The notes beneath the pieces were generated by a model that saw nothing but the letters and a program-made list of their open reading frames with translations, ran no database searches and had not been told where the DNA came from. The translations under genes were made by a program, and so were the position numbers. Of a stretch of DNA of 24,000 nt, positions 2 to 20,586 are shown piece by piece. How positions within the stretch are numbered: the first letter of the stretch is position 1; every line of letters begins with the position of its first letter. The DNA is taken from NCBI GenBank assembly GCA_942492895.1, contig OW818652.1, positions 532,462-556,461 of the forward strand, written 5' to 3'. The stretch comes from Candidatus Electrothrix laxa (GTDB lineage: Bacteria; Desulfobacterota; Desulfobulbia; Desulfobulbales; Desulfobulbaceae).

Positions 2-1561
2 ATCAAAGGAAAGGTGGAGCGGCGTCCGGGCGACATGGCCAATACCAAGCTGCAAACCGGTGAAATAGAGGTGCTGGTGAGTGAGCTGACCATCCTCAAT
101 ACCAGCAAGACCCCGCCGTTCCCCTTGGATGAGATCAGCGAGATCTCGGATAATCTCCGTCTTCAGTACCGCTATCTTGACCTCCGTCGACCGGAAATCG
201 CCAACAATCTGATCATGCGTCATAAGGCGGTTCAGACCGTCCGTAATTATCTCACGGAAAGCGATTTTCTGGAGATCGAGACACCCATGCTCACCCGCTC
301 CACCCCGGAAGGCGCTCGTGATTATTTGGTACCCAGCCGGGTTAATGCAGGCAAGTTTTATGCTCTGCCCCAGTCTCCGCAGCTATTTAAGCAGATGCTG
401 ATGATCGCCGGGATGGAACGCTACTTTCAGGTCGTCAAGTGCTTCCGTGATGAGGATTTGCGTGCTGATCGCCAGCCGGAATTCACCCAGATCGATATGG
501 AGCTGAGTTTTGTCGGTGAGGATGACATCATCCAGATCAGTGAAGGCATGGTCAAGGCCGTGTTCAAGGCGACTCGGGATATAGACCTGGAGCCTCCTTT
601 CCGTCGAATGAAATACGACGAGGCTGTTGCTCGTTACGGAACAGATCGCCCGGATACCCGCTTCGGCCTAGAGCTGACCGACCTGACTGAAACCCTGCGC
701 GGTTGCGGCTTTAAAGTGTTTAACTCCATCATTGAAAAGGGCGGGGCAGTCAAGGCGATCAATGCCAAGGGCTGCGCGACCTTCTCCCGCAAGGATCTGG
801 ACGATTTGACCAACTTTGCTGGCACCTTCGGGGCCAAGGGTATGGCTTGGATCAAGATAAAAGAGGAAGGGTGGCAGTCGCCCATCACCAAGTTTTTTAA
901 CGAGGACGAGCTGGCCGCTATGGGTAAGGCTCTGGATGCTGAGCCGGGCGATCTGATCCTGTTCGGTGCGGACGATGCGTCCACGGTGAATCAAGTCTTG
1001 GCCGAGTTGCGTCTGGAGCTGGCCCGTCGGCTTGATCTCCTGGATAAGAATACCTTTGATTTCCTCTGGATCACCGACTTCCCCTTAGTCGAGTATGATA
1101 GCGAACGGAAACGGTATTCTTCTGTGCATCATCCGTTCACCGCCCCTTTTGAAGAGCATCTTGACATGCTGGAAAGCGATCCGGGCAAGGTGAAGAGTCG
1201 GGCCTACGATCTGGTCCTGAACGGCAATGAGATCGGTGGCGGTTCCATTCGTATCCATCAGCCGGATATCCAGGCACGGGTGCTCAAGGTATTGGGGATT
1301 GATAAGGAAGAGGCTGAGGATAAATTTGGTTTTCTCCTCAATGCTCTGGAGTTCGGGGCACCGCCCCACGGCGGCATTGCCTTTGGTGTGGATCGCCTAC
1401 TGATGATCCTGACCGGTTCGAGCTCCATCCGGGACGTGATCGCTTTTCCTAAAACCCAGAAGGCTACCTGTCCGCTTACCGAGGCTCCGGCTTCGGTTGC
1501 CAGGAAGCAGCTTACTGAGTTGCATTTGCGACCTGATTGGAAAGAGGAGAAGAAAGAGTAG
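2..1561 (+). CDS. aspS: aspartyl-tRNA synthetase, 5'-truncated by the window edge (C-terminal ~520 aa)
   Basis: The frame is open from nt 2 (IKGKVERRPGDMANTKLQTGEIEV, the end of the OB anticodon-binding domain). Class II motifs are present: FRDEDLRADRQPEFTQID and GGIAFGVDRLLM. A GAD-type insertion lies between them. The stop is at 1559-1561, followed by a terminator. Confidence 0.97.
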   Translation: MKGKVERRPGDMANTKLQTGEIEVLVSELTILNTSKTPPFPLDEISEISDNLRLQYRYLDLRRPEIANNLIMRHKAVQTVRNYLTESDFLEIETPMLTRSTPEGARDYLVPSRVNAGKFYALPQSPQLFKQMLMIAGMERYFQVVKCFRDEDLRADRQPEFTQIDMELSFVGEDDIIQISEGMVKAVFKATRDIDLEPPFRRMKYDEAVARYGTDRPDTRFGLELTDLTETLRGCGFKVFNSIIEKGGAVKAINAKGCATFSRKDLDDLTNFAGTFGAKGMAWIKIKEEGWQSPITKFFNEDELAAMGKALDAEPGDLILFGADDASTVNQVLAELRLELARRLDLLDKNTFDFLWITDFPLVEYDSERKRYSSVHHPFTAPFEEHLDMLESDPGKVKSRAYDLVLNGNEIGGGSIRIHQPDIQARVLKVLGIDKEEAEDKFGFLLNALEFGAPPHGGIAFGVDRLLMILTGSSSIRDVIAFPKTQKATCPLTEAPASVARKQLTELHLRPDWKEEKKE

Positions 1562-1626: not shown

Positions 1627-1714
1627 CTTTTCTTGTTACTCTTTTCTCTTTACAGAGTAAATGCTTAGCACAAGATCCTCCAGCGCCCCTATATTGACAC
1701 CATTTTTTTCAACA

Positions 1715-3298
1715 ATGAGGAGTATTCCCCTGAATCTAATAATTAATAATTTGTACATTCCTATTGAAAAAGATGGGATGGATGAATATGTACATGCTGC
1801 TTCTAAAAAGATGGGCATAGGCGAAGGGCTATCCATCTCAAAATTTTTGAGTAAATCTCTAGATTTAAGAAATCAAAATCAATTCTATTACATAATGTCA
1901 CTCGTTGTCAGCGTCAGTGACAGCTATGAAAACAAGCAAAACTTCCCCAAATATAGAGAACAAATAAAAGAAACCAGGAAGGCAGCAAGCGTTAAGGCTA
2001 ACCCTATCATTGTTGGTTTTGGCCCTGCTGGAATATTTGCGGCGCTTGAACTTATAGCTTGTGGGCACAAACCTTTAATCTTCGAACGAGGTGAAAAGTT
2101 AGAGAAACGCTCGATTGATGTTCAAAAATTTATAAAAGAAAAGGTGTTACATCCTGAATCAAATATCCAATTTGGCGAAGGCGGTGCCGGTTCATACTCA
2201 GACGGCAAATTGTTCTCCCGGAGAAATAATAATAAAAGCTCTATAAATCGGGTGTTGAAGACGTTTGTTAAATTTGGTGCGCCCGATGAAATCGGGTACA
2301 TCAGCAAACCACATTTGGGAACGGATGTGTTGTGCAAAATAGTTCGTAATATGAGACGCTATATTCTTGATAGAGGAGGTGAGATACATTACGGCGCAAA
2401 AATGACGGACATCTTGATATCAAAGGGTAAGGCCTCAGGTGTTATAATAAATGGCGAGAAGGAATATCGTTCCTCTCGCATCTATATTGCTTTGGGACAT
2501 TCTGCGCGCGATACAGTTGAGATGATGCATGAAAAAGGTGTTGCTCTTGAGCAGAGGCCGATTTCTGTTGGTGTGAGAATTGAGCATCCTGTCGAGACTA
2601 TAAATCTTATGCGATATGGTGCAAAATATCATAACTTTAAAGAATTAGGCGCTGCCACCTATTCTTTGAATTATACGAACCGAAAAATTAAAAGAGGGGT
2701 TTATACATTCTGCATGTGTCCGGGAGGCGAGGTCGTTAATGCTTCATCCGAGCAAGGCATGTTGGTTTTAAACGGCATGAGCTACTCACGACGATCATCA
2801 CCATTTTCAAATGCAGCGCTGGTTGTACGCTGTCATACTGACGATTATACATCAATCAGTCCATTGGCTGGCATAACATTCCAAAAAGACATTGAGCGAA
2901 AGGCCTTTAACGAAGGAGGGAAAAACTGGAAAGTCCCTGCCCAAAATTTGATGAATTTTTTAGGAGAGAAGGGCTCTGCTGACTTACATGAAAACTCGTA
3001 TAAGATGGGAGTCGTTCCTGCTGATATGAATGACATCTTTCCTGAATTTGTGATTGATCAACTGTTGGCGGCATTTAATAAATGGAAAGAAGAAGTACCC
3101 TTATTTGTTTCAAATCAGGCGATATTATTAGGTGCGGAAACAAGAACGTCATCTCCTGTACGGATTAAACGCAATGACAACTTTGAATCAGTAAATATAA
3201 AAAACTTGTATCCAATAGGCGAAGGTTCAGGTTATACCGGCGGAATAACGAGTTCTGCCGCTGATGCTATAAGGGCTGTTGAACTCCACGAATTGTAA
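1715..3298 (+). CDS. FAD-dependent protein of the COG2509 family (uncharacterised NAD(FAD)-utilising dehydrogenase)
   Basis: Dinucleotide-binding motif IIVGFGPAGIFAALEL, then GEGGAGSYSDGKL and a C-terminal GEGSGYTGGITSSAADA. The N-terminal LIINNLYIPIEKD...SLDLRN resembles the small N-domain of this family. Start chosen at M19 (ATG 1715); the ORF-track start at 1661 lies within about 35 nt of the aspS terminator. No clear SD. AT-rich codon usage. Confidence 0.8.
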   Translation: MRSIPLNLIINNLYIPIEKDGMDEYVHAASKKMGIGEGLSISKFLSKSLDLRNQNQFYYIMSLVVSVSDSYENKQNFPKYREQIKETRKAASVKANPIIVGFGPAGIFAALELIACGHKPLIFERGEKLEKRSIDVQKFIKEKVLHPESNIQFGEGGAGSYSDGKLFSRRNNNKSSINRVLKTFVKFGAPDEIGYISKPHLGTDVLCKIVRNMRRYILDRGGEIHYGAKMTDILISKGKASGVIINGEKEYRSSRIYIALGHSARDTVEMMHEKGVALEQRPISVGVRIEHPVETINLMRYGAKYHNFKELGAATYSLNYTNRKIKRGVYTFCMCPGGEVVNASSEQGMLVLNGMSYSRRSSPFSNAALVVRCHTDDYTSISPLAGITFQKDIERKAFNEGGKNWKVPAQNLMNFLGEKGSADLHENSYKMGVVPADMNDIFPEFVIDQLLAAFNKWKEEVPLFVSNQAILLGAETRTSSPVRIKRNDNFESVNIKNLYPIGEGSGYTGGITSSAADAIRAVELHEL

Positions 3299-3316: not shown

Positions 3317-3793
3317 ATGAAAATACGCAAGCTTACTCCAGAAAATTTTGGCAAAGCCTATGCATTATTGCGTCAGGCGTTTCCTCGTAGCACATATGAA
3401 ATGCAATTAGCTGAAAAATTTCACAAGAATGGAAGGGGAGTTCATGAATGGGTGTGTATTCACACTAACACAGTAATTGGCTATATTGCTTTTTCTCATG
3501 CCTATAATGGCTCTGACATCTGCGGCTTGCATTTGGGGCCGATGGCTGTAAAATCGGATTTTCAACAACAAGGGGTAGGCTCAGAGTTGCTTCGTTTTGC
3601 CTTGAGGCAGCCTGAAATAAAGGATAAAACCATTTTTGTCTTGGGTGAGCCGAATTTTTATAAGAAATTTGGGTTTGAACTTTGTGCAGCACCAATTTGC
3701 CCATTTGACAAAAACAATACCCATTTTTTGGGTATACGCAACAACTCAAATAACCAGTTCACTGTGGGATATGAATCTGAGTTTTATAAATAA
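3317..3793 (+). CDS. GNAT family N-acetyltransferase (YhbS/COG3153-like)
   Basis: 158 aa with the acetyl-CoA motif QQQGVGSELLRFAL and a C-terminal FYKKFGF. It starts 18 nt after the upstream gene, on the same strand, with the same AT-rich composition. Confidence 0.8.
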   Translation: MKIRKLTPENFGKAYALLRQAFPRSTYEMQLAEKFHKNGRGVHEWVCIHTNTVIGYIAFSHAYNGSDICGLHLGPMAVKSDFQQQGVGSELLRFALRQPEIKDKTIFVLGEPNFYKKFGFELCAAPICPFDKNNTHFLGIRNNSNNQFTVGYESEFYK

Positions 3794-3811: not shown

Positions 3812-3883
3812 TTCCGGGGCACCGCACCCCACGGCGGTATTGCCTTTGGTGTGGATCGTCTGCTTATGTCCTGAAGGATCGAG
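3812..3883 (+). pseudogene. 72-bp relic of the aspS 3' region (homologous to 1352-1422)
   Basis: Direct nucleotide alignment to aspS 1352-1422. The core CACGGCGGTATTGCCTTTGGTGTGGATCGTCTGCTTATG encodes HGGIAFGVDRLLM and differs from aspS at 4 positions, all third-codon and synonymous. Flanks contain indels, and homology ends at TCGAG (3883). Confidence 0.85.
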
Positions 3884-3892
3884 TATTTTGAA

Positions 3893-5218
3893 ATGAAGTC
3901 GTATCCGAAAAAAATATACATATCTGCTTCATGGCATGAAACTGAGGCAGTATTCCCAGCATTTCTGATCGAAAAATTTATTGATCAGAATGTAACAATT
4001 GTCGGAGATCACCCAGATTACAAAGAGGATGATCCTTTTGACAGGTCATGGGTGGCTCGAATTCATAAGTTGATTTCCGACTGTAGCGCATTAGTTGCGG
4101 TGTTTCCAAAACGTACGGATGTTCAAACTACTTCACCATACATGTTTCCAGAAATTATTTCGGCAGCTCTTCATAATATTCCTATCTTGATGTTTTCACA
4201 GAGCGGGGTGTTGATAAAGTCAATAAAGACTAAGTCCGGTTACAATTTGCATTTTGGTGATTCTGATAAAAAAGAAACCCTTAACTCCCTTGATATTGTT
4301 AAAAATAAATTTTGCCTAGATGAAATAGACAGATTTCTTAGTGATATATCGATCTTGAAACTATCTACTGAATCTGAGATAAGTGGACCTTACGAACTTC
4401 TTGGCGATGACAAAATTGAAGATATTGTAGGACGATTTGTAAAAGGTAGTAAAAGGCCTTGTCGAGAATCTTACGTCTTTAACATAATACCCTTTTCTTT
4501 AGTAGGTAGAGAGCACAAAGAAATTTCAAAGGCAGTGTTTGAAGAGACAGGATTGCCTTGTGTTACTGCATTAGATTCTATTGGCGACTCCCAAGATATG
4601 CGCTCGAAGTGGAAGGAGTCTTTATCTAACGCAGAATTTGTAATTGTCGAGCTATCTCAATTAAGAGATGCTTGTATATTTGAAGCAGGTATAGCTGTTG
4701 GGATGGGGACTGATGTGTATGTATTAACTGGAAAAAACAAAATATCAATTCCATATGGCTTAGATGATAAGCCATTAAGAGTTTATTCTTCTCTAAGCCA
4801 GTTAAGAACATTGGTCAAAGAAGTATGCTGTAAGGAATATAAAAGAAAGGTTTACAACCTTGATCCAATATATAATAAGTCTTTGCTAATTGGTGGGGTT
4901 GCCAATGGTGTTCCAGAGTGGTTATATGAAGCAGAAAAAAGATTTACCCCAATTCATGCATATACTGCATCCTCGTGGCTAATTAGTGTATCTATTGCCA
5001 TAATAATATGGATAATATTTTTGAATTATGGCGCATCTGATTCACCCCTGTCGTATGTAAGTATGGGTATAAGCCTAGTATTTGGTATTGTTCCTCATCT
5101 TCGAGGTGTTAGGGAAAGTGTAGAAAATAAAATATTGGAGAGATATAGCAGAATATTTTTTTCTTCATTAGGTGTATTTATTCTATGCGTATCTGCTTTG
5201 GTGTTTTCTTACCTATAA
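3893..5218 (+). CDS. hypothetical membrane protein: two tandem nucleoside 2-deoxyribosyltransferase/TIR-like (SLOG-type Rossmannoid) domains plus 3 C-terminal TM helices
   Basis: Domain 1 (aa 5-105): KKIYISAS..VTIVGD..ISDCSALVAVF..SPYMFPEIISAALHNIPILMF. Domain 2 (aa 192-310): YVFNIIPF..NAEFVIVELS..DACIFEAGIAVGMGTDVYVLT. Both show the strand-helix pattern with an acidic residue before a small-residue helix (E87, E264). The hydrophobic segments are aa ~360-380, 386-403 and 421-441. A strong terminator follows. No SD. Coding confidence is high; the domain assignment comes from pattern recall only. Confidence 0.75.
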   Translation: MKSYPKKIYISASWHETEAVFPAFLIEKFIDQNVTIVGDHPDYKEDDPFDRSWVARIHKLISDCSALVAVFPKRTDVQTTSPYMFPEIISAALHNIPILMFSQSGVLIKSIKTKSGYNLHFGDSDKKETLNSLDIVKNKFCLDEIDRFLSDISILKLSTESEISGPYELLGDDKIEDIVGRFVKGSKRPCRESYVFNIIPFSLVGREHKEISKAVFEETGLPCVTALDSIGDSQDMRSKWKESLSNAEFVIVELSQLRDACIFEAGIAVGMGTDVYVLTGKNKISIPYGLDDKPLRVYSSLSQLRTLVKEVCCKEYKRKVYNLDPIYNKSLLIGGVANGVPEWLYEAEKRFTPIHAYTASSWLISVSIAIIIWIIFLNYGASDSPLSYVSMGISLVFGIVPHLRGVRESVENKILERYSRIFFSSLGVFILCVSALVFSYL

Positions 5219-5297
5219 AACGAACATAACAAAAGAAATTAACACGGATGTTTTTCTGCGGTGTTTGAGCTGTACTAGCTGGTGTAAGTCCGTAAAA

Positions 5298-5348
5298 GGG
5301 GCAGAGCAAAATTAAATAATAATTTTGCTCTGCCCCTCTTTATTCTTT
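5298..5348 (+). terminator. Rho-independent terminator closing the AT-rich island
   Basis: Perfect 16-bp stem: GGGGCAGAGCAAAATT (5298-5313) pairs with AATTTTGCTCTGCCCC (5321-5336). The loop is 7 nt, followed by TCTTTATTCTTT. Confidence 0.8.
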
Positions 5349-5360
5349 GATGCTGTACGG

Positions 5361-5398
5361 AACGGGCGATTTGCTCCTGATCGCCCGTTATATTTTTA
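5361..5398 (+). terminator. second hairpin/terminator
   Basis: 10-bp stem: AACGGGCGAT (5361-5370) pairs with ATCGCCCGTT (5380-5389). The loop is 9 nt, followed by ATATTTTTATA. Confidence 0.5.
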
Positions 5399-5399
5399 T

Positions 5400-5620
5400 A
5401 TGAAAGTGACCAGTACATAGGCATTCAGACCTTCAGCGAAATCCGTGAAGAAGAATACCGCTACGTTGATAAAACAAAAATAGCTTTTGAGCTGATCAAC
5501 AACGGGAAATACTATTTTCTCTCCCGCCCTCGCCGCTTCGGCAAGAGCCTTTTTCTTTCCACCTTGAACAAGACCTTTCCGCAGAGAAAAATGTTAGATT
5601 TTACAGACGGAACAGGCTAG
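5400..5620 (+). pseudogene. 5' relic (~50 codons) of an AAA-ATPase_like/PDDEXK_9 family gene, paralogous to the gene at 6632
   Basis: 5416-5566 aligns without gaps to 6646-6796 with 9 mismatches in 151 nt. It encodes [50 protein letters not shown]. The candidate ATG at 5400 is out of frame with this stretch. Homology stops at 5566 and the frame ends at TAG 5618-5620. Confidence 0.85.
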
Positions 5621-5741: not shown

Positions 5742-6032
5742 ATGAAAAAAAACAAAGAACAGCATACAACATCGCTGGCAAGGATTCTTCCGCTTGTTGA
5801 ATCGTTGCCGCAGGCGGATAAATTCCAGCTCATGCAGTCGTTGCTCACCCAACTTGCTTGGGAGCAGGGGCTTTCTCTGCAAAGGTGGAACAAAGTCAAG
5901 AGCAGTCAGGGGAAGCGCATGGCGGCTGTTTTGCAACGGATGGCGGACAGACACGCTTTGTCGCATATTGATGATCCGGCAGCTTGGCAGCGGGAAATTC
6001 GAAAAGACCGGCCATTGCCGGGCAGGGAGTAG
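5742..6032 (+). CDS. putative antitoxin (partner of the downstream PIN/VapC toxin)
   Basis: 96 aa with an SD (GAGGA) 5 nt upstream of the ATG. Its stop lies 3 nt before the vapC ATG, with GGGAG as the SD for vapC. The C-terminal tail DPAAWQREIRKDRPLPGRE looks like tails I recall on antitoxins paired with PIN toxins. Family not firmly recognised. Confidence 0.6.
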   Translation: MKKNKEQHTTSLARILPLVESLPQADKFQLMQSLLTQLAWEQGLSLQRWNKVKSSQGKRMAAVLQRMADRHALSHIDDPAAWQREIRKDRPLPGRE

Positions 6033-6035
6033 GTT

Positions 6036-6510
6036 ATGCTTCTAGACAGCAATGCGATCATCTATTCCATCAAACCTGAATCTGATGCATTGCGTCAACT
6101 GATAGCGGAACATAATCCTTGATGGTTTCGTAAAAAGCCCCATTTTGCGAAAAGTCGCACCGTAACTCATTGAGTTGTCGTTAGCGAATTGCCATTTTCT
6201 GACTTTTTACCAGATCATCAATCCTTCGGTATCGGCTGTCAGTTATGTGGAGGTGCTGGGGTATCATCAATTGACGGTATCGGATAGAGAAGACTTTATT
6301 GAATTTTTCAAGACAGCGCAGATTATTTCTGTTTCACAGCCGGTTTTGGAGCAGGCGGTGGCGTTACGACAGCAGCGCAAAATATCTTTGGGAGATTCCA
6401 TTATTGCGGCAACCGCACTCTTGAACGATTTGACTTTGGTGACGGCAAATGTCTCTGACTTTCGTTGGATTGACAATATCAAGCTGAAGAACCCGTTGAC
6501 TGAATTGTAA
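6036..6510 (+). pseudogene. vapC: PIN-domain VapC toxin gene interrupted by a 99-bp insertion
   Basis: The 5' part encodes MLLDSNAIIYSIKPESDALRQLIAEHNP and then hits a TGA created at the insertion junction. The 3' part (the ORF-track 6175-6510 ORF, in another frame) encodes SVSAVSYVEVLGYHQL...LGDSIIAATALLNDLTLVTANVSDFRWI. Deleting 6121-6226 restores one continuous 122-codon PIN ORF (AEHNPSVSAVSYVEV). Confidence 0.85.
6121..6219. mobile_element. 99-bp MITE-like insertion with imperfect ~17-bp terminal inverted repeats and a 7-bp target site duplication
   Basis: The TSD AATCCTT occurs at 6114-6120 and 6220-6226. The left end is GATGGTTTCGTAAAAAG and the reverse complement of the right end is GATGATCTGGTAAAAAG (14/17 match). 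It has no coding capacity. Its removal restores the vapC frame. Confidence 0.75.
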
Positions 6511-6631: not shown

Positions 6632-8161
6632 ATGCGAAAATTACCCATAGGTATTCAAACCTTCAGTGAAATCCGTGAAGAGGAATACCGCTACGTTGAT
6701 AAAACAAAAATCGCTTTTGAGCTGATCAACAACGGGAAATATTACTTCCTCTCCCGCCCCCGCCGCTTCGGCAAGAGCCTTTTTCTTTCCACCTTGCAGG
6801 CTGTGTTCGAGGGCCGGAATGAGCTGTTTCACGGCCTGTATATCTATGACATCTGGGATTGGCAGACAACCTATCCGGTCGTCAAAATCAGCTTTGCCGG
6901 AGTGGCCCGAAATGTTGCTGCTATGCAGCAGGATATCAGGAATATCCTCAAGGATAACCGGGAGCGCCTGAACATTGACTGCCTGCACGAAGAAGATACA
7001 GGTGGGTGCTTACGGGAGCTGATCAGGAAGTCATTTGAAAAATATCAGCAGAAAGTCGTTATCCTGGTGGATGAGTACGACAAGCTGATACTTGATAATC
7101 TGGATCAGCTGGAGGTCGCTCAAGAGGCAAGGGAAATCCTCAAAGACCTGTACGCAACCATCAAGGACTGCGACGAGTATATCAAGTTCGCCTTTTTTAC
7201 CGGCGTCAGTAAATTTGCCAAGGTCTCTGTGTTCAGCGGCCTGAATAACCTTTCGGATATCTCCCTTGATCCTCGTTACGCGACCATCTGTGGTTATACC
7301 CAGAATGATCTGGAAAGCGTTTTTATCGATCTTCTGCAAGACGCTGATATGGACAGGGTGCGGGAGTGGTACAACGGCTATAATTTTCTGGGGGAAAAAG
7401 TTTATAATCCCTTTGATATCCTGCTTTTCATCGACAAGGGACTCATTTTTAATAATTATTGGTTCGAGACCGGCACGCCGACCTTTTTACTGAAGCTTAT
7501 CCGGCAGAACAATTATTTCCTCCCCCGTCTTTCCGACCTGCGGGTTGACAGCTCGCTTCTCGACGGTTTTGATATCGACCACATCAGACTTGAATCTATC
7601 CTGTTTCAGGCCGGTTACCTGACGATCAAAGAGGTTCATGAACTAGAGTTCGGAGGGTTTGAATATACCCTGCACTACCCGAACAGAGAGGTCGCCCTTT
7701 CCTTTAATGACGCGCTTATCCGTTTTCTGACGGACGCGACAACATACACCCCCATCAAAACCGGCTTATTTTCCGCATTAAAATCCGGGGATGTCGAAGC
7801 ATTGAAAGATGTGCTCATCTCCCTGTTCGCCTCGATTCCGTATAATAATTATGTCAAAAACACAGTTGCCGAGTATGAGGGCTATTATGCCAGTGTGATT
7901 TATGCCTATCTCGCAAGCCTGGGCATACGCATTATCGCAGAGGATGTGACTAATACCGGGCGTGTCGACTTAACGCTTTTCCTGGGTGATAACATATATA
8001 TTGTCGAGTTTAAAGTTGACGGCAATGCTGATCCCCTTGAGCAGATTAAAGACCGAAAGTATGCGCAGAAGTATACAGGCCAGGGGATAGTGTATTTGGT
8101 CGGTATCCTTTTCAGCAGTACAAAGAAAAATATTGCGGCGTTTTCTTGGGAAAGGGTATGA
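6632..8161 (+). CDS. AAA-ATPase_like (PF09820-type) N-domain plus PD-(D/E)xK nuclease (PDDEXK_9-type) C-domain protein
   Basis: Signature N-terminus [55 protein letters not shown] (GKS P-loop). Walker B is VVILVDEYDKL. The C-terminus TGRVDLTLF..IYIVEFKVDG fits a D...E-x-K nuclease core. SD (AAGGAGAG) upstream. Confidence 0.85.
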   Translation: MRKLPIGIQTFSEIREEEYRYVDKTKIAFELINNGKYYFLSRPRRFGKSLFLSTLQAVFEGRNELFHGLYIYDIWDWQTTYPVVKISFAGVARNVAAMQQDIRNILKDNRERLNIDCLHEEDTGGCLRELIRKSFEKYQQKVVILVDEYDKLILDNLDQLEVAQEAREILKDLYATIKDCDEYIKFAFFTGVSKFAKVSVFSGLNNLSDISLDPRYATICGYTQNDLESVFIDLLQDADMDRVREWYNGYNFLGEKVYNPFDILLFIDKGLIFNNYWFETGTPTFLLKLIRQNNYFLPRLSDLRVDSSLLDGFDIDHIRLESILFQAGYLTIKEVHELEFGGFEYTLHYPNREVALSFNDALIRFLTDATTYTPIKTGLFSALKSGDVEALKDVLISLFASIPYNNYVKNTVAEYEGYYASVIYAYLASLGIRIIAEDVTNTGRVDLTLFLGDNIYIVEFKVDGNADPLEQIKDRKYAQKYTGQGIVYLVGILFSSTKKNIAAFSWERV

Positions 8162-19855: not shown

Positions 19856-19945
19856 CCTGGGGTGTTCCCCAGGCTGGATAAATAGAGCCCTTTTAGGGCA
19901 GAAGGGCAAATCGGGAGAATAGAGTACACGGCGTGCCGTGTACGT
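19856..19945 (+). repeat. family-2 composite intergenic repeat, copy 1
   Basis: CCTGGGGTGTTCCCCAGG hairpin, then ATAGAGCCCTTTTAGGGCAGAAGGGCAAATCGGGAGAATAGAGTACACGGCGTGCCGTGTACG. About 90% identical to 21570-21633. Confidence 0.8.
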
Positions 19946-20025
19946 CTTTTTTCGGAGTGTTAGAAGTTCAATACCAAGCTCAACACAACTTGAGCTGCTT
20001 TGAAATTAAAACAGGGAGCTGTACG

Positions 20026-20586
20026 ATGAAAGCGCAGGCGGTACAAGAGGGAGTAAGTCTTCAGGAATATCTTACCGGAGAGCAGCAGACCGAGATCCGA
20101 CATGAATACATCAACGGCACCACCCATGCTATGGGCGGGGCAAGTGCGGCCCATAATCTGATTGCTGGCAATGTATTTGCTGTCCTTCATGCAGCGGCCC
20201 GCAACAGTTCGTGTCAGGTCTTTATGGCGGATATGAAGGTGTATCTCAAAATTGCGGGAGAAGATGTCTTTTACTACCCGGATCTGCTGGTCAGCTGTGA
20301 CCCGAAGGATAACGAAAAATATTACCGAACCCATCCCTGCCTGATCGTTGAGGTGCTTTCCCCGACAACCGAACGTATTGATCGACGGGAAAAATTCATG
20401 GCCTACACCTCGCTCCCCTCATTGCAGGAGTATGTCCTTATTGCCCAGGATCGGCAGGCGGTCATGGTCTTTCGGAGAAAAAAGAGCTGGAAGCCGGAGC
20501 TGTTCCGCAGCGGGGACCGGTTTTCTTCTGACTGTTTGGAATGTACGCTTCCGCTTGCTGAGGTTTATAACCGGGTGGAACTTTGA
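20026..20586 (+). CDS. Uma2 (DUF820) family PD-(D/E)xK endonuclease
   Basis: HEYINGTTHAMGGASAAHNLIAGNVF...YYPDLLVSC...PCLIVEVLSPTTERIDRREKFMAYTSLPSLQEYVLI matches the Uma2 pattern (D...E-V-x-S core). Start chosen at ATG 20026, which has a GGGAG SD. The ORF-track GTG start at 19933 lies inside the repeat. Confidence 0.85.
   Translation: MKAQAVQEGVSLQEYLTGEQQTEIRHEYINGTTHAMGGASAAHNLIAGNVFAVLHAAARNSSCQVFMADMKVYLKIAGEDVFYYPDLLVSCDPKDNEKYYRTHPCLIVEVLSPTTERIDRREKFMAYTSLPSLQEYVLIAQDRQAVMVFRRKKSWKPELFRSGDRFSSDCLECTLPLAEVYNRVEL

What the first reader, a model, noticed from the sequence alone, without database searches (positions are those of the whole stretch)
3893..5218. Orphan 441-aa protein: two deoxyribosyltransferase/TIR-like Rossmannoid domains fused to a 3-TM C-terminus
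Seen in sequence: two internally similar modules (aa ~5-105 and ~192-310) each show a strand (IYISAS / VFNIIPF) and a later strand ending a hydrophobic run (ALVAVF / FVIVEL). Each then has an acidic residue at a helix start (FPEIISAALHNIPILMF / IFEAGIAVGMGTDVYVLT). This is the layout I associate with nucleoside 2-deoxyribosyltransferase-like/TIR-like (SLOG superfamily) folds, in which that Glu is catalytic or ligand-contacting. The C-terminal 80 aa contain three strongly hydrophobic helices. Nucleotide-binding or nucleotide-processing Rossmannoid domains fused to small TM modules are the architecture of several abortive-infection effectors, for example the SLOG/TIR plus 2TM or SLATT types predicted in nucleotide-signalling defence systems. 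The gene is AT-rich and lacks an SD. It sits in an island beside a housekeeping gene and is closed by a perfect 16-bp-stem terminator. I could not place it in a named family from the sequence alone.
Basis: inference. Interest (0 to 1): 0.7.

Follow-up and report, generated by a model that had tools for sequence, protein, structure and literature searches.

The report
TIR-like/NDT-like membrane-anchored conflict protein
This horizontally acquired cable-bacterium gene encodes a membrane protein whose cytoplasmic head pairs a TIR-like domain with a nucleoside-deoxyribosyltransferase-like domain; the same two-domain head occurs in about 1,900 other proteins fused to known immune killing domains, so it is probably an undescribed single-gene anti-phage or suicide switch, though no function has been tested.

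Summary
The ORF (3893-5218, +, 441 aa) is real. It equals a hypothetical protein of Candidatus Electrothrix laxa and has 13 homologues. Structure models, profile comparisons and weak Pfam/PDB hits show four parts: D1 (aa 1-105), a divergent TIR-like domain; a beta-rich linker; D2 (aa 191-330), a nucleoside 2-deoxyribosyltransferase/DNPH1-like domain; and three C-terminal hydrophobic helices. Both domains keep the active-site Glu (E87, E264).

D1 and D2 share a fold class but show no significant sequence similarity to each other. The protein is not an orphan. The D1-D2 pair recurs in about 1,900 proteins, joined to a canonical TIR, a CAP12/Pycsar-type TIR, CHAT, patatin, an alpha/beta-hydrolase or transmembrane bundles.

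The gene has 36% GC, against 54% in the neighbouring aspS. It travels alone, with no adjacent cyclase or TIR partner in eight contexts. It often sits beside restriction-modification, toxin-antitoxin or transposase genes.

Best reading (confidence about 0.42): a stand-alone conflict protein in which the D1-D2 head binds or processes an NAD+/nucleotide-derived ligand and controls a membrane-damaging tail.

Main rival: a membrane-anchored N-glycosidase.

It is not a member of SLATT, Thoeris, CBASS or Pycsar. I rate it a new variant of a known kind.

The parts
3893..5218 (+). ORF of 441 aa (stop codon included). Predicted membrane protein with its head domains in the cytoplasm.
   Evidence: Identical to an Electrothrix laxa hypothetical protein, with 13 homologues. 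AF2 pLDDT 82.
3893..4207 (+). D1 (aa 1-105): divergent TIR-like alpha/beta domain. Conserved constellation S11, S13, W14, D39, R56, T80, S81, E87.
   Evidence: DSSP layout. Deep-profile hhalign against canonical TIR: 95.5%, E 1.6e-8, with E87 aligned to the Glu of the TIR W-x-x-E motif. REC controls below 1%. Foldseek hits to NDT, ThsB and TIR-STING. Residue conservation of 119-126 out of 126 for W14, D39, R56 and E87.
4151..4153 (+). Codon of E87 (GAA), the predicted active-site or ligand-contacting Glu of D1.
4208..4462 (+). Beta-rich linker/insert (aa 106-190) between D1 and D2. It is longer than in the TIR-D1-D2 relatives.
   Evidence: Strands E108-112, E117-121, E152-157, E163-168 and helices H142-150, H175-185 in the D1-only model, with near-identical elements in the full model. 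Domain spacing in relatives.
4463..4882 (+). D2 (aa 191-330): nucleoside 2-deoxyribosyltransferase/DNPH1-like ('DrHyd') domain. Motifs are FVFNIIPFS (beta1) and LRDACIFEAGIAVG (E264), with the C-terminal signature CCKEYKRKVYN.
   Evidence: PF05014 sub-threshold in 14 of 14 members, best E 1.7e-6. PDB profile hit to T. brucei NDT 2a0k, E 0.026, plus DNPH1 and SfSTING TIR. D2 of relatives matches PADLOC CBASS 'Effector TIR' model PDLC00733, positions 266-377. Foldseek hits to DNPH1 and NDT.
4682..4684 (+). Codon of E264 (GAA), aligned with the Glu of the conserved FE-G motif of NDT (taken to be the catalytic nucleophile).
4883..4948 (+). Juxtamembrane segment (aa 331-352) with the invariant G339-x-P341-x-W343 motif.
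   Evidence: Invariant columns in A1.
4949..5215 (+). C-terminal membrane module (aa 353-441). It has TM1 (~354-378), a short outside loop, TM2 (~384-403, weaker), a basic cytoplasmic loop (404-420; 5 K/R; invariant E411) and TM3 (421-441). Predicted topology is N-in, C-out.
   Evidence: AF2 helices H353-378, H385-416, H418-440. Hydropathy and charge counts. E411 invariant. No SLATT or other Pfam hit.
5297..5337 (+). Intrinsic-terminator-like hairpin: 18-bp perfect stem, 5-nt loop, T-rich tail.
   Evidence: RNAfold -31.9 kcal/mol for the 60-nt stretch 5291-5350 that contains it.
5361..5389 (+). Second terminator-like hairpin (11 pairs) followed by a T-rich tail.
3815..3883 (+). Left boundary of the gene unit: a degraded, frame-broken copy of aspS-internal sequence 1354-1422 (86% identity).
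   Evidence: blastn and tblastn. Ungapped core 3827-3868 against 1364-1405 at 90%. DNA homology to other copies of the gene starts at 3891.
5416..5566 (+). Right boundary of the gene unit: a 94% copy of 6646-6796, the 5' end of the AAA-ATPase_like/PDDEXK_9 gene.

Best explanation
The gene encodes a stand-alone, horizontally mobile conflict protein, most likely of the anti-phage abortive-infection type, embedded in the inner membrane.

**Shown**
- The cytoplasmic head has a divergent TIR-like domain (D1), a beta-rich linker and an NDT/DNPH1-like domain (D2).
- The tail has a Gly-x-Pro-x-Trp juxtamembrane motif and three hydrophobic helices. The loop between the second and third helix is basic, has an invariant Glu, and is inferred to face the cytoplasm.
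- The D1-D2 pair is a conserved cassette. In relatives it is combined with alternative output domains: canonical TIR, CAP12/Pycsar-type TIR, CHAT, patatin, alpha/beta-hydrolase plus TM, and other TM bundles.

**Inferred**
- The D1-D2 head acts as the sensing and regulatory unit. It binds, and possibly cleaves, an NAD+- or (deoxy)nucleotide-derived small molecule that appears during infection.
- Ligand binding drives self-association.
- The clustered transmembrane tails then breach or depolarise the membrane, killing or arresting the cell before phage release.
- No signal-producing enzyme is encoded next to the gene. The ligand would therefore come from the infection itself, from D1's own TIR-like chemistry, or from an unlinked gene.
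For: **Fold and site**
- AF2 models with pLDDT 82 and 84.
- Foldseek hits to DNPH1, NDT and TIR.
- PF05014 hits in 14 of 14 members.
- The NDT motif Glu aligns to E264.
- D1 against TIR gives hhalign 95.5%, with negative REC controls.
- E87 is Glu in 126 of 126 D1 domains; D39 and R56 are conserved in at least 124 of 126; E264 is Glu in 126 of 141 D2 domains; G266 is Gly in 141 of 141.

**Constant head, variable output**
- Among the top 150 representative hits there are 49 TIR_2+D1+D2 proteins, about 38 D1+D2+TM proteins and about 11 bare D1-D2 proteins. The rest include fusions with CHAT, patatin, EAD7, PCTIR-TIR, or hydrolase plus TM.
- The same alternation of TIR, patatin and TM outputs on a sensor domain is reported for SLOG-containing Thoeris effectors ('SLOG and 4TM', 'SLOG Patatin', 'TIR and SLOG'). 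Source: bioRxiv 10.64898/2025.12.03.692087, Table S2.

**Link to NAD/ADPR chemistry**
- TIR-D1-D2 genes lie next to TPR-S proteins, a SLATT_1+TPR-S protein, and Macro plus NUDIX genes.

**Mobility and accessory context**
- GC is 36% against 54% in aspS.
- DNA homology between two Electrothrix copies is confined to the ORF.
- The gene is flanked by gene-fragment repeats.
- Neighbours of homologues include a type II R-M pair, GmrSD_N plus IS91, an MTase-HNH gene, a PIN toxin-antitoxin pair, and a tyrosine recombinase.

**Topology**
- Five K/R residues sit in the TM2-TM3 loop and none in the TM1-TM2 loop.
Against: - No experiment has been done, and neither ligand nor oligomer was modelled.
- Both Glu residues and the surrounding constellation are as conserved as in active enzymes. 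The head could therefore be catalytic rather than sensory.
- The Aravind group treats DrHyd/NDT-like domains in conflict systems as NADase effectors or signal generators, not sensors (PMC9503650, PMC7159879).
- In the sister REC-D2-D2-EAD proteins, D2 sits in the effector position.
- No signal-generating partner is adjacent in any of eight contexts. This differs from all characterised sensor-TM effectors.
- The TM module matches no known pore-forming family, and its second helix is only moderately hydrophobic.
- Foldseek E-values are marginal (about 1e-3), and generic flavodoxin folds score similarly for D1.
- The defence-island association is anecdotal (8 contexts), not statistical.
- No hit in PADLOC, in phage or plasmid records, or in viral contigs.
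Confidence: 0.42

Rival explanations
1. Membrane-anchored N-glycosidase. D1 (TIR-like) and/or D2 (NDT/DNPH1-like) are active enzymes that hydrolyse NAD+ or a (deoxy)nucleotide. That would deplete NAD+ or the nucleotide pool, or make an ADPR-type signal. The three helices only tether the enzyme, or act as the sensor of envelope or membrane perturbation that switches it on.
For: - The catalytic-position Glu is strictly conserved in both domains, with a conserved polar constellation around E87.
- E264 aligns to the Glu of the conserved FE-G motif of NDT.
- D2 of relatives matches a CBASS TIR-effector model.
- NDT-like 'CMP hydrolase' domains are effectors of type VIII Thoeris (bioRxiv 10.64898/2025.12.03.692087).
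- DrHyd and TIR are classed as NADase effectors or signal generators (PMC9503650).
- Bare D1-D2 proteins of about 300 aa exist.
- The REC-D2-D2-EAD architecture puts D2 in the effector slot.
Against: - If the head were the effector, one would expect fusions to sensor domains such as STING, SAVED, cNMP-binding or NLR. The observed fusions are to other effectors.
- The TM module has its own invariant residues (G339, P341, W343, E411) and is replaced in relatives by enzymatic killing domains. That is the behaviour of an output module rather than a passive anchor.
Confidence: 0.3
2. Toxin or effector of another kind of conflict, not triggered by phage. Examples would be an addiction or stabilisation module of a mobile island, or an inter-bacterial or within-filament competition factor.
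For: - The gene has a single-gene mobile character and atypical GC, and it sits amid decayed toxin-antitoxin genes and gene-fragment repeats.
- Conflict systems with TIR, DrHyd and EAD domains are reported as enriched in multicellular prokaryotes (PMC7159879). The host here is a filamentous cable bacterium.
Against: - No adjacent antitoxin or immunity gene is conserved across contexts.
- There is no secretion signal or secretion-system neighbourhood.
- The fusion partners in relatives are typical of anti-phage systems.
Confidence: 0.12
3. Housekeeping or metabolic enzyme: a membrane-associated nucleoside 2-deoxyribosyltransferase or nucleotide N-hydrolase acting in nucleoside salvage or in modified-nucleoside or cell-envelope metabolism.
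For: - D2 resembles NDT, DNPH1 and BcmB, which are metabolic enzymes.
- Some homologues have only metabolic neighbours (L001, L063).
Against: - The family is extremely sparse and patchy. There are 14 close homologues among 5.8 billion clusters, spread over unrelated lineages.
- Composition is foreign.
- No conserved operon partner was found.
- Relatives are fused to TIR, CHAT, patatin and EAD domains.
- None of the members passes the PF05014 cut-off for the window protein (13.6 bits against 28.8 bits).
Confidence: 0.06

Closest known systems
Thoeris effectors built from a TDS-class sensor plus an output domain. Examples are ThsA SIR2-SLOG and the predicted 'SLOG and 4TM', 'SLOG Patatin' and 'TIR and SLOG' (type IX) effectors (bioRxiv 10.64898/2025.12.03.692087).
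   Same: A Rossmannoid domain of the TIR-DrHyd-SLOG class sits next to interchangeable killing modules (TM bundle, patatin, TIR). The logic is nucleotide-derived ligand, then oligomerisation, then cell death. Relatives have TPR-S, SLATT, Macro and NUDIX neighbours, which are ADPR-linked.
   Different: No thsB-type TIR gene is adjacent in any of eight contexts. The head is a TIR-like plus NDT-like pair, not a SLOG domain, and no SLOG Pfam model matches. The gene travels alone.
Nucleoside 2-deoxyribosyltransferase / DNPH1 (Rcl) / BcmB CMP N-glycosidase family (Pfam PF05014; 'DrHyd' of Aravind and colleagues)
   Same: D2 shares the fold, the beta1 P-F motif, and the Glu at the N-terminus of the helix after strand 3, in a D/N-x-x-x-x-E-x-G context. 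The tandem arrangement recalls the obligate dimer of these enzymes; that comparison is my inference.
   Different: The match is below the Pfam gathering score. D2 is fused to a TIR-like domain and a membrane tail. Its distribution and composition are those of an accessory, mobile gene. Activity is untested.
CBASS and Pycsar effectors with a TIR or TM output (Cap12 TIR-STING, PycTIR, PycTM, TM-STING; PADLOC 'Effector TIR' models PDLC00730-00733)
   Same: D2 of close relatives matches PDLC00733. One relative (P0027) carries a genuine CAP12/Pycsar TIR (PF10137, E 7e-33) after D1-D2. Another (P0024) has a TM region matching PDLC00730. TIR and TM outputs alternate on a constant head.
   Different: No CD-NTase or pyrimidine cyclase neighbour is present. 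There is no STING, SAVED or cNMP-binding domain. The window protein itself has no PADLOC hit.
SLATT-domain 2TM effectors (SMODS- and SLOG-associating 2TM; ThsH of type VII Thoeris)
   Same: A small C-terminal helical membrane module is attached to, or working with, nucleotide-binding Rossmannoid domains. A SLATT_1+TPR-S gene lies next to one TIR-D1-D2 relative (L015).
   Different: No SLATT Pfam model matches any of the 14 family members. The module has three helices with its own motifs (GxPxW, E411).
EAD/bDLD-linked conflict systems of multicellular prokaryotes (Kaur, Burroughs, Iyer, Aravind; eLife 2020 and 2021)
   Same: Relatives carry EAD7, EAD8, bDLD1, CHAT and trypsin next to D2 or D1-D2. 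The hosts are largely filamentous lineages: cable bacteria, cyanobacteria and Chloroflexi.
   Different: The window protein has no EAD or death-like adaptor. No NTPase core (STAND, MoxR-vWA) lies nearby.

Membership tests
Nucleoside 2-deoxyribosyltransferase/DNPH1 superfamily (PF05014, DrHyd), applied to D2 | Sequence match to the family profile above the curated cut-off | tested here: not met
   The window protein scores 13.6 bits (E 0.075) against a 28.8-bit cut-off. All 14 members hit below or near threshold, best E 1.7e-6. The PDB profile hit to T. brucei NDT has E 0.026.
Nucleoside 2-deoxyribosyltransferase/DNPH1 superfamily (PF05014, DrHyd), applied to D2 | Three-layer alpha/beta (flavodoxin-like) fold with the catalytic Glu at the start of the helix after strand 3 | tested here: met
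   AF2 layout E249-253 then H259-270 carrying E264. Foldseek hits to DNPH1 (TM-score on target up to 0.74) and NDT at probability 1.0. E264 aligns to the Glu of 'AFEVG' in 2a0k. The position is Glu in 126 of 141 D2 domains.
Nucleoside 2-deoxyribosyltransferase/DNPH1 superfamily (PF05014, DrHyd), applied to D2 | N-glycosidic bond cleavage or transfer activity; dimeric composite active site | not testable with these tools
   This needs enzyme assays and a multimer or ligand model.
TIR domain, applied to D1 | Profile-level homology to canonical TIR domains | tested here: inconclusive
   A deep D1 profile (126 domains) against 47 canonical TIR_2 domains gives hhalign 95.5%, E 1.6e-8 over 122 columns; REC controls give 0.2-6%. 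The profile of the 12 TM-family D1s alone gives only 27%. No Pfam TIR model hits the window protein.
TIR domain, applied to D1 | Catalytic Glu in the helix after strand C (the W-x-x-E context) | tested here: met
   E87 in 'TSPYMFPEI' aligns to the Glu of 'SGWV-EEY'. The position is Glu in 126 of 126 D1 domains.
TIR domain, applied to D1 | NAD+ cleavage or cyclisation activity and BB-loop-mediated self-association | not testable with these tools
   This needs biochemistry or multimer modelling.
SLATT (SMODS- and SLOG-associating 2TM effector domain) | Match to SLATT_1-6 or DUF4231 profiles; two-TM core | tested here: not met
   No SLATT or DUF4231 hit at E<=1 in any of the 14 members. Three helices are predicted rather than two.
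SLOG superfamily (LOG/DprA/YpsA/ThsA-SLOG) | Match to SLOG-type profiles | tested here: not met
   No LOG, DprA or SLOG-cluster Pfam family at E<=1. No SLOG structure appears among the top 50 Foldseek hits.
Thoeris / CBASS / Pycsar effector | Operon partner that makes the signal (ThsB TIR, CD-NTase, pyrimidine cyclase) | tested here: not met
   None is present within the window. None is present in L001, L002, L003, L004, L010, L063 or L064.
Thoeris / CBASS / Pycsar effector | Recognised by defence-system profile libraries | tested here: not met
   PADLOC gives 0 families for the window protein at E<=0.1. Only relatives hit PDLC00733, PDLC00730 or PycTIR, and they do so through D2 or their extra domains.
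Anti-phage defence gene (generic) | Enrichment in defence islands; protection phenotype | tested here: inconclusive
   Five of eight contexts contain R-M, GmrSD, toxin-antitoxin, MTase-HNH or recombinase/IS genes. No statistical test was done and no phenotype is known.

The most novel reading that the evidence does not exclude
The protein would be a complete Thoeris-like immune pathway in one polypeptide. D1, a catalytically competent TIR-like domain, would make an ADPR-derived product when infection is sensed. D2, the NDT/SLOG-like domain next to it, would bind or remodel that product. The three-helix tail would execute membrane damage. More broadly, the D1-D2 pair would define a large, undescribed class (about 1,900 proteins at 50% clustering) of single-gene TIR-family immune switches that plug into TIR, TM, patatin, CHAT or hydrolase outputs without any separate signal-producing gene. 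This class appears especially in filamentous or multicellular bacteria.
Probability: 0.15. Interest if true: 0.8.

Novelty: new variant of a known kind. Interest (0 to 1): 0.6.

Why it matters
Systems built from TIR, NDT-like (DrHyd) and SLOG domains are the core of nucleotide-signal immunity in bacteria, plants and animals. Recent surveys of bacterial TIR signalling deliberately set aside stand-alone proteins (bioRxiv 10.64898/2025.12.03.692087).

This finding points to a conserved TIR-like plus NDT-like two-domain head. No Pfam, NCBIfam or PADLOC model captures it. It recurs in roughly 1,900 representative proteins and is wired to at least six different killing modules, usually as a single gene.

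If the head is a sensor, its ligand would be a new infection cue, or a TIR product sensed in cis. If it is an enzyme, it would be a new membrane-bound NAD+/nucleotide-degrading effector.

Either result would extend the catalogue of single-gene abortive-infection systems. It would also give a tractable 441-aa test case with two obvious point mutants (E87A, E264A) and a deletable tail. The occurrence in a cable bacterium fits the proposal that suicide-type immunity is favoured in multicellular prokaryotes.

Tried and rejected
1. **Internal duplication of D1 and D2.** hhalign probability is 0.5% with family profiles and 11% with deep profiles. I rejected a detectable duplication; only the fold class and the Glu position are shared.
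2. **Named-family assignment.** NCBIfam, PADLOC and a single-sequence PDB search found nothing. Pfam gave only a sub-threshold PF05014 hit.
3. **SLATT or SLOG membership.** No profile hit.
4. **Phage, prophage or plasmid origin.** No relatives in IMG/VR viral contigs, INPHARED phages or PLSDB plasmids, including a search with the D1-D2 part of a TIR relative.
5. **A conserved operon partner for the TM family.** None across eight contexts. The upstream small ORFs differ: an aspS remnant here, a 63-aa ORF in L004, a RyR-domain gene in L010.
6. **Functional link to the upstream FAD-dependent protein and GNAT genes.** These are absent from all homologue contexts, and a broken aspS fragment separates them from the gene, so I treat them as unrelated.
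7. **Integron cassette idea for L010 and the window hairpin.** L010 does have a tyrosine recombinase followed by same-strand small genes. However, the window hairpin has no attC-like R'/R'' motifs on inspection, and I did not pursue this further.
9. **First genome scan.** The scan with the 18-sequence TIR-D1-D2 alignment failed for lack of a conserved stretch. It succeeded with 8 sequences.
Full report
**1. What is at the coordinates**

The ORF at 3893-5218 (+) encodes 441 aa. It is identical to 'hypothetical protein KKHLCK_02170' of Candidatus Electrothrix laxa, a cable bacterium. A search of 5.8 billion protein clusters found 13 further homologues at 30-75% identity. They include one from another Electrothrix species and a partial one from Vreelandella neptunia. 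The N-terminus (MK-Y-P-K-K-V-Y) is conserved, so the start codon is right.

The gene has 35.8% GC (GC3 27.8%). The adjacent aspS gene has 54.5% (GC3 65%), and the window as a whole has 47%. No GGAGG-like motif precedes the ATG. An 18-bp perfect hairpin with a T-rich tail lies at 5297-5337, and a second terminator-like site lies at 5361-5389.

**2. Anatomy**

An AlphaFold2 model built on the 14-sequence alignment has mean pLDDT 82 and pTM 0.75. It shows four parts:
- **D1 (aa 1-105).** An alpha/beta domain with strands at 7-11, 35-39, 66-71 and 98-102, and helices that include 82-93.
- **Linker (aa 106-190).** A beta-rich insert.
- **D2 (aa 191-330).** A second alpha/beta domain with strands at 195-198, 223-225, 249-253 and 274-279, and a helix at 259-270.
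- **Tail.** Three long helices at 353-378, 385-416 and 418-440.

E87 and E264 each sit near the start of the helix that follows the third strand of their domain.

Hydropathy and charge suggest an N-in, C-out topology:
- TM1 lies at about 354-378 (mean Kyte-Doolittle 1.7).
- The five-residue outside loop has no K/R.
- TM2 lies at about 384-403 (1.3).
- The loop at 404-420 has five K/R and the invariant E411.
- TM3 lies at 421-441 (2.3).

A G339-x-P341-x-W343 motif before TM1 is invariant.

**3. What the two domains are**

*D2.* The window protein gives a weak PF05014 (nucleoside 2-deoxyribosyltransferase) hit at aa 233-282 (E 0.075). All 14 family members hit this model, best E 1.7e-6. A family profile searched against PDB sequences finds T. 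brucei NDT (E 0.026). Weaker matches go to DNPH1/Rcl and the TIR domain of SfSTING. E264 aligns with the Glu of the conserved 'AFEVG' motif, which I take to be the catalytic nucleophile. Foldseek of the full model finds DNPH1 (TM-score on target up to 0.74), cyanobacterial NDT, and TIR domains of SPARTA, SARM1 and SfSTING. All are at probability 1.0, but E-values are only about 1e-3.

*D1.* A separate model of aa 1-190 (pLDDT 84) hits NDT (2a0k; 20% identity, rmsd 3.5 Å), BcmB, DNPH1, ThsB and TIR-STING. These are mixed with generic flavodoxin-fold proteins. D1 (126 domains) aligns to the canonical TIR_2 domains of related proteins at 95.5% probability (E 1.6e-8, 122 columns). This alignment places 'TSPYMFPE87I' on the TIR 'SGWV-EEY' motif. 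Controls against REC domains give 0.2-6%. With only the 12 TM-family sequences, the probability falls to 27%.

*D1 against D2.* hhalign gives 0.5% with family profiles and 11% with deep profiles. They are not a detectable duplication.

I therefore call D1 TIR-like and D2 NDT/DNPH1-like. Both belong to the TIR-DrHyd-SLOG class as defined by Aravind and colleagues (PMC9503650).

*Conservation.* Conservation is striking. In D1, the E87 position is Glu in 126 of 126 domains, D39 is conserved in 124, R56 in 125 and W14 in 119. In D2, E264 is Glu in 126 of 141 domains and G266 is Gly in 141 of 141.

**4. The gene is not an orphan: the D1-D2 head is a recurrent cassette**

A profile search of 1.84 billion representatives found 1,882 proteins at E<=1e-3, 169 at E<=1e-10 and 29 at E<=1e-30. 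The architectures among the best 150 are:
- 49 proteins of about 430 aa with an N-terminal canonical TIR_2 domain followed by D1-D2.
- About 38 with D1-D2 followed by one to three hydrophobic helices; the family of the window gene belongs here.
- About 11 bare D1-D2 proteins of 300-350 aa.
- Individual proteins with other fusions:
  - D1-D2 plus a CAP12/Pycsar-type TIR (P0027; PF10137, E 7e-33).
  - CHAT+TIR+D1-D2 (P0053).
  - EAD7+TIR+D1-D2 (P0044).
  - patatin+D1-D2 (P0093).
  - D1-D2 plus an alpha/beta-hydrolase-like domain and a TM helix (P0025, P0035).
  - D1-D2 plus a different multi-TM region (P0024).

D2 of several relatives matches the C-terminal part of the PADLOC CBASS 'Effector TIR' model PDLC00733. 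P0024's TM region matches PDLC00730.

A sister family has REC (or three GAF domains) followed by two D2-like domains, then EAD7, EAD8, bDLD1, trypsin or CHAT.

**5. Genomic context**

*The TM family.* In the window, the upstream genes are a FAD-dependent protein and a GNAT. Downstream lie a fragment of an AAA-ATPase_like gene, a decayed PIN-type toxin-antitoxin pair, the intact AAA-ATPase_like/PDDEXK_9 gene, and then tatB/tatC. The rest of the window is housekeeping.

Homologue contexts differ completely from one another:
- L001: a lytic-transglycosylase-like (SLT_4) gene and an Smr gene.
- L002: a PIN toxin-antitoxin pair nearby.
- L003: an MTase-HNH gene immediately downstream.
- L004: a type II restriction enzyme (E 7e-68) and methyltransferase immediately upstream of the 75%-identical Electrothrix copy.
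- L010: a tyrosine recombinase, plus a RyR-domain gene 4 nt upstream.
- L063: metabolic genes.
- L064: GmrSD_N, IS91 transposases and group II intron fragments.

No cyclase, CD-NTase or separate TIR gene is adjacent in any of them.

DNA similarity between the window and the two closest copies runs from 3891, to 5211 for L004 and to the contig end for L008. Only the ORF is shared.

No relatives were found in viral contigs, phage genomes or plasmids.

*The TIR-D1-D2 family.* This family gave 49 genome loci across Cyanobacteria, Chloroflexi, Acidobacteria, Bacteroidota, Proteobacteria, Planctomycetia and one archaeon. Most have no conserved neighbour. The exceptions are:
- Three loci have an adjacent TPR-S/MAP3K_TRAF_bd protein.
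- One locus has a DUF4231/SLATT_1+TPR-S protein.
- A clade of six Anaerolineales loci has divergently oriented Macro and NUDIX genes.

TPR-S, SLATT and Macro are the sensor or effector parts of TIR-signal (Thoeris-type) systems. NDT-like 'CMP hydrolase'+TPR is the effector of type VIII Thoeris (bioRxiv 10.64898/2025.12.03.692087).

**6. Mechanism**

*Shown:* fold class, conserved Glu-centred sites in both domains, a conserved three-helix tail, a constant head with swappable outputs, solitary and mobile genomic behaviour, and recurrent proximity to defence or mobile genes.

*Inferred:* everything about ligand, trigger and killing.

The output domains that replace the tail are all recognised killing modules: TIR, PCTIR-TIR, CHAT, patatin and hydrolase. 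The same TIR/patatin/TM alternation is seen on SLOG sensors in predicted Thoeris effectors (Table S2). It is also seen on STING, SAVED and cNMP-binding sensors in CBASS and Pycsar; that last point is from my own knowledge. This favours reading D1-D2 as the sensing and regulatory unit and the tail as a membrane-damaging output (confidence 0.42).

The strongest rival (0.30) reads the head as an active N-glycosidase: an NADase, a nucleotide-depleting enzyme or a signal-making enzyme. In that reading the tail is an anchor or a membrane-stress sensor. The evidence for it is:
- The enzyme-grade conservation of both Glu residues.
- The literature's treatment of DrHyd and TIR as effectors or signal generators.
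- The REC-D2-D2-EAD architectures.

The two readings are not exclusive. D1 could make a product that D2 senses; this is the novel case, at 0.15. Other conflict roles (0.12) and a metabolic role (0.06) are less likely, given the patchy distribution, foreign composition and fusion partners.

**7. Comparison with known families**

The protein works like a sensor-TM effector of Thoeris, CBASS or Pycsar. It fails the membership tests for those systems because it has no adjacent signal-generating enzyme and no PADLOC hit. It also fails for SLATT and SLOG because no profile matches.

D2 meets the structural and catalytic-residue criteria of the NDT/DNPH1 superfamily, but not the Pfam score cut-off. 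D1 meets the TIR criteria only at deep-profile level.

I found no description of the TIR-like plus NDT-like pair as a unit in the papers I could read. The recent systematic TIR survey explicitly excluded stand-alone proteins. Burroughs et al. 2015 could not be consulted, so prior mention there cannot be excluded.

**8. Verdict**

Novelty: a new variant of a known kind. Interest: 0.6.

Noticed in passing
window 1354-1422 and 3815-3883: A 69-bp internal segment of aspS (encoding GAPPHGGIAFGVDRLLM) is repeated 2.46 kb downstream at 86% identity, with indels that break the frame. It ends 10 nt before the target ATG. The FAD-dependent protein and GNAT genes lie between the two copies. This looks like an old integration scar at the 3' part of aspS, but no integrase is present.
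   Followed up: partly
window 5416-5566 and 6646-6796: A 151-nt direct repeat at 94% identity. The first copy is a truncated 5' fragment of the AAA-ATPase_like/PDDEXK_9 gene (6632-8161). The target gene plus its terminators (3884-5415) therefore sits exactly between two gene-fragment repeats, which suggests nested insertions between aspS and tatBC. The order of events is unresolved.
   Followed up: partly
window 5742-6032, 6037-6122 and 6175-6510: A small antitoxin-like ORF is followed by a PIN/VapC-like reading frame. The PIN assignment is from reading the translation only. The PIN frame is split by a stop and about 50 nt of unrelated sequence, so this is a decayed toxin-antitoxin module inside the repeat-bounded segment.
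   Followed up: partly
window 1661-3298 and 3317-3793: Two genes at about 40% GC lie between aspS and the aspS remnant. One is a FAD-dependent protein (PF21688, E 2e-67) and the other is a GNAT acetyltransferase. They are absent from all homologue contexts of the target gene, so they are probably a separate acquired unit.
   Followed up: partly
L010 5770-6780, 7701-7997, 8001-9392: In a 129-kb metagenome contig, the homologue is preceded by a tyrosine recombinase and, 4 nt upstream, by a 98-aa RyR-domain gene (PF02026, E 1.5e-33). Several same-strand small ORFs without Pfam hits follow it. This may be a cassette-like array or a functional RyR partner.
   Followed up: no
L004 1669-4371 and 4722-6056: The closest homologue (75% identity, Electrothrix sp. 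AUS1_2) lies directly downstream of a type II restriction enzyme (PADLOC REase_II, E 7e-68) and a methyltransferase that appears split or duplicated.
   Followed up: partly
L016 9345-10670, L022 6603-7970, L034 9255-10652, L015 4711-8004: TIR-D1-D2 genes lie adjacent to TPR-S/MAP3K_TRAF_bd proteins, and in L015 to a 1,097-aa DUF4231/SLATT_1+TPR-S protein. This is a possible two-gene Thoeris-like configuration in which the NDT-like domains sit on the TIR protein rather than on the TPR protein. That arrangement is the converse of type VIII ThsI.
   Followed up: partly
L042, L048, L049, L051, L052, L057 (for example L048 960-2135 and 2148-2828, minus strand): In six Anaerolineales loci, the TIR-D1-D2 gene is preceded divergently by a Macro-domain protein and a NUDIX hydrolase, and in most of them followed by a GT28-family glycosyltransferase. 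These are ADP-ribose-processing neighbours. The pattern may simply reflect vertical inheritance within one clade.
   Followed up: partly
proteins P0068, P0098, P0112, P0114, P0116, P0117, P0129, P0130, P0135: A sister architecture has REC (or three GAF domains) followed by two tandem D2-like NDT-like domains, often ending in EAD7, EAD8, bDLD1, trypsin or CHAT. Tandem pairs of these Rossmannoid domains seem to be a recurring design, possibly a fused pseudo-dimer.
   Followed up: partly
window 19933-20586: A Uma2-family putative restriction endonuclease gene (PF05685, E 8e-33) sits among housekeeping genes (hisD upstream).
   Followed up: no
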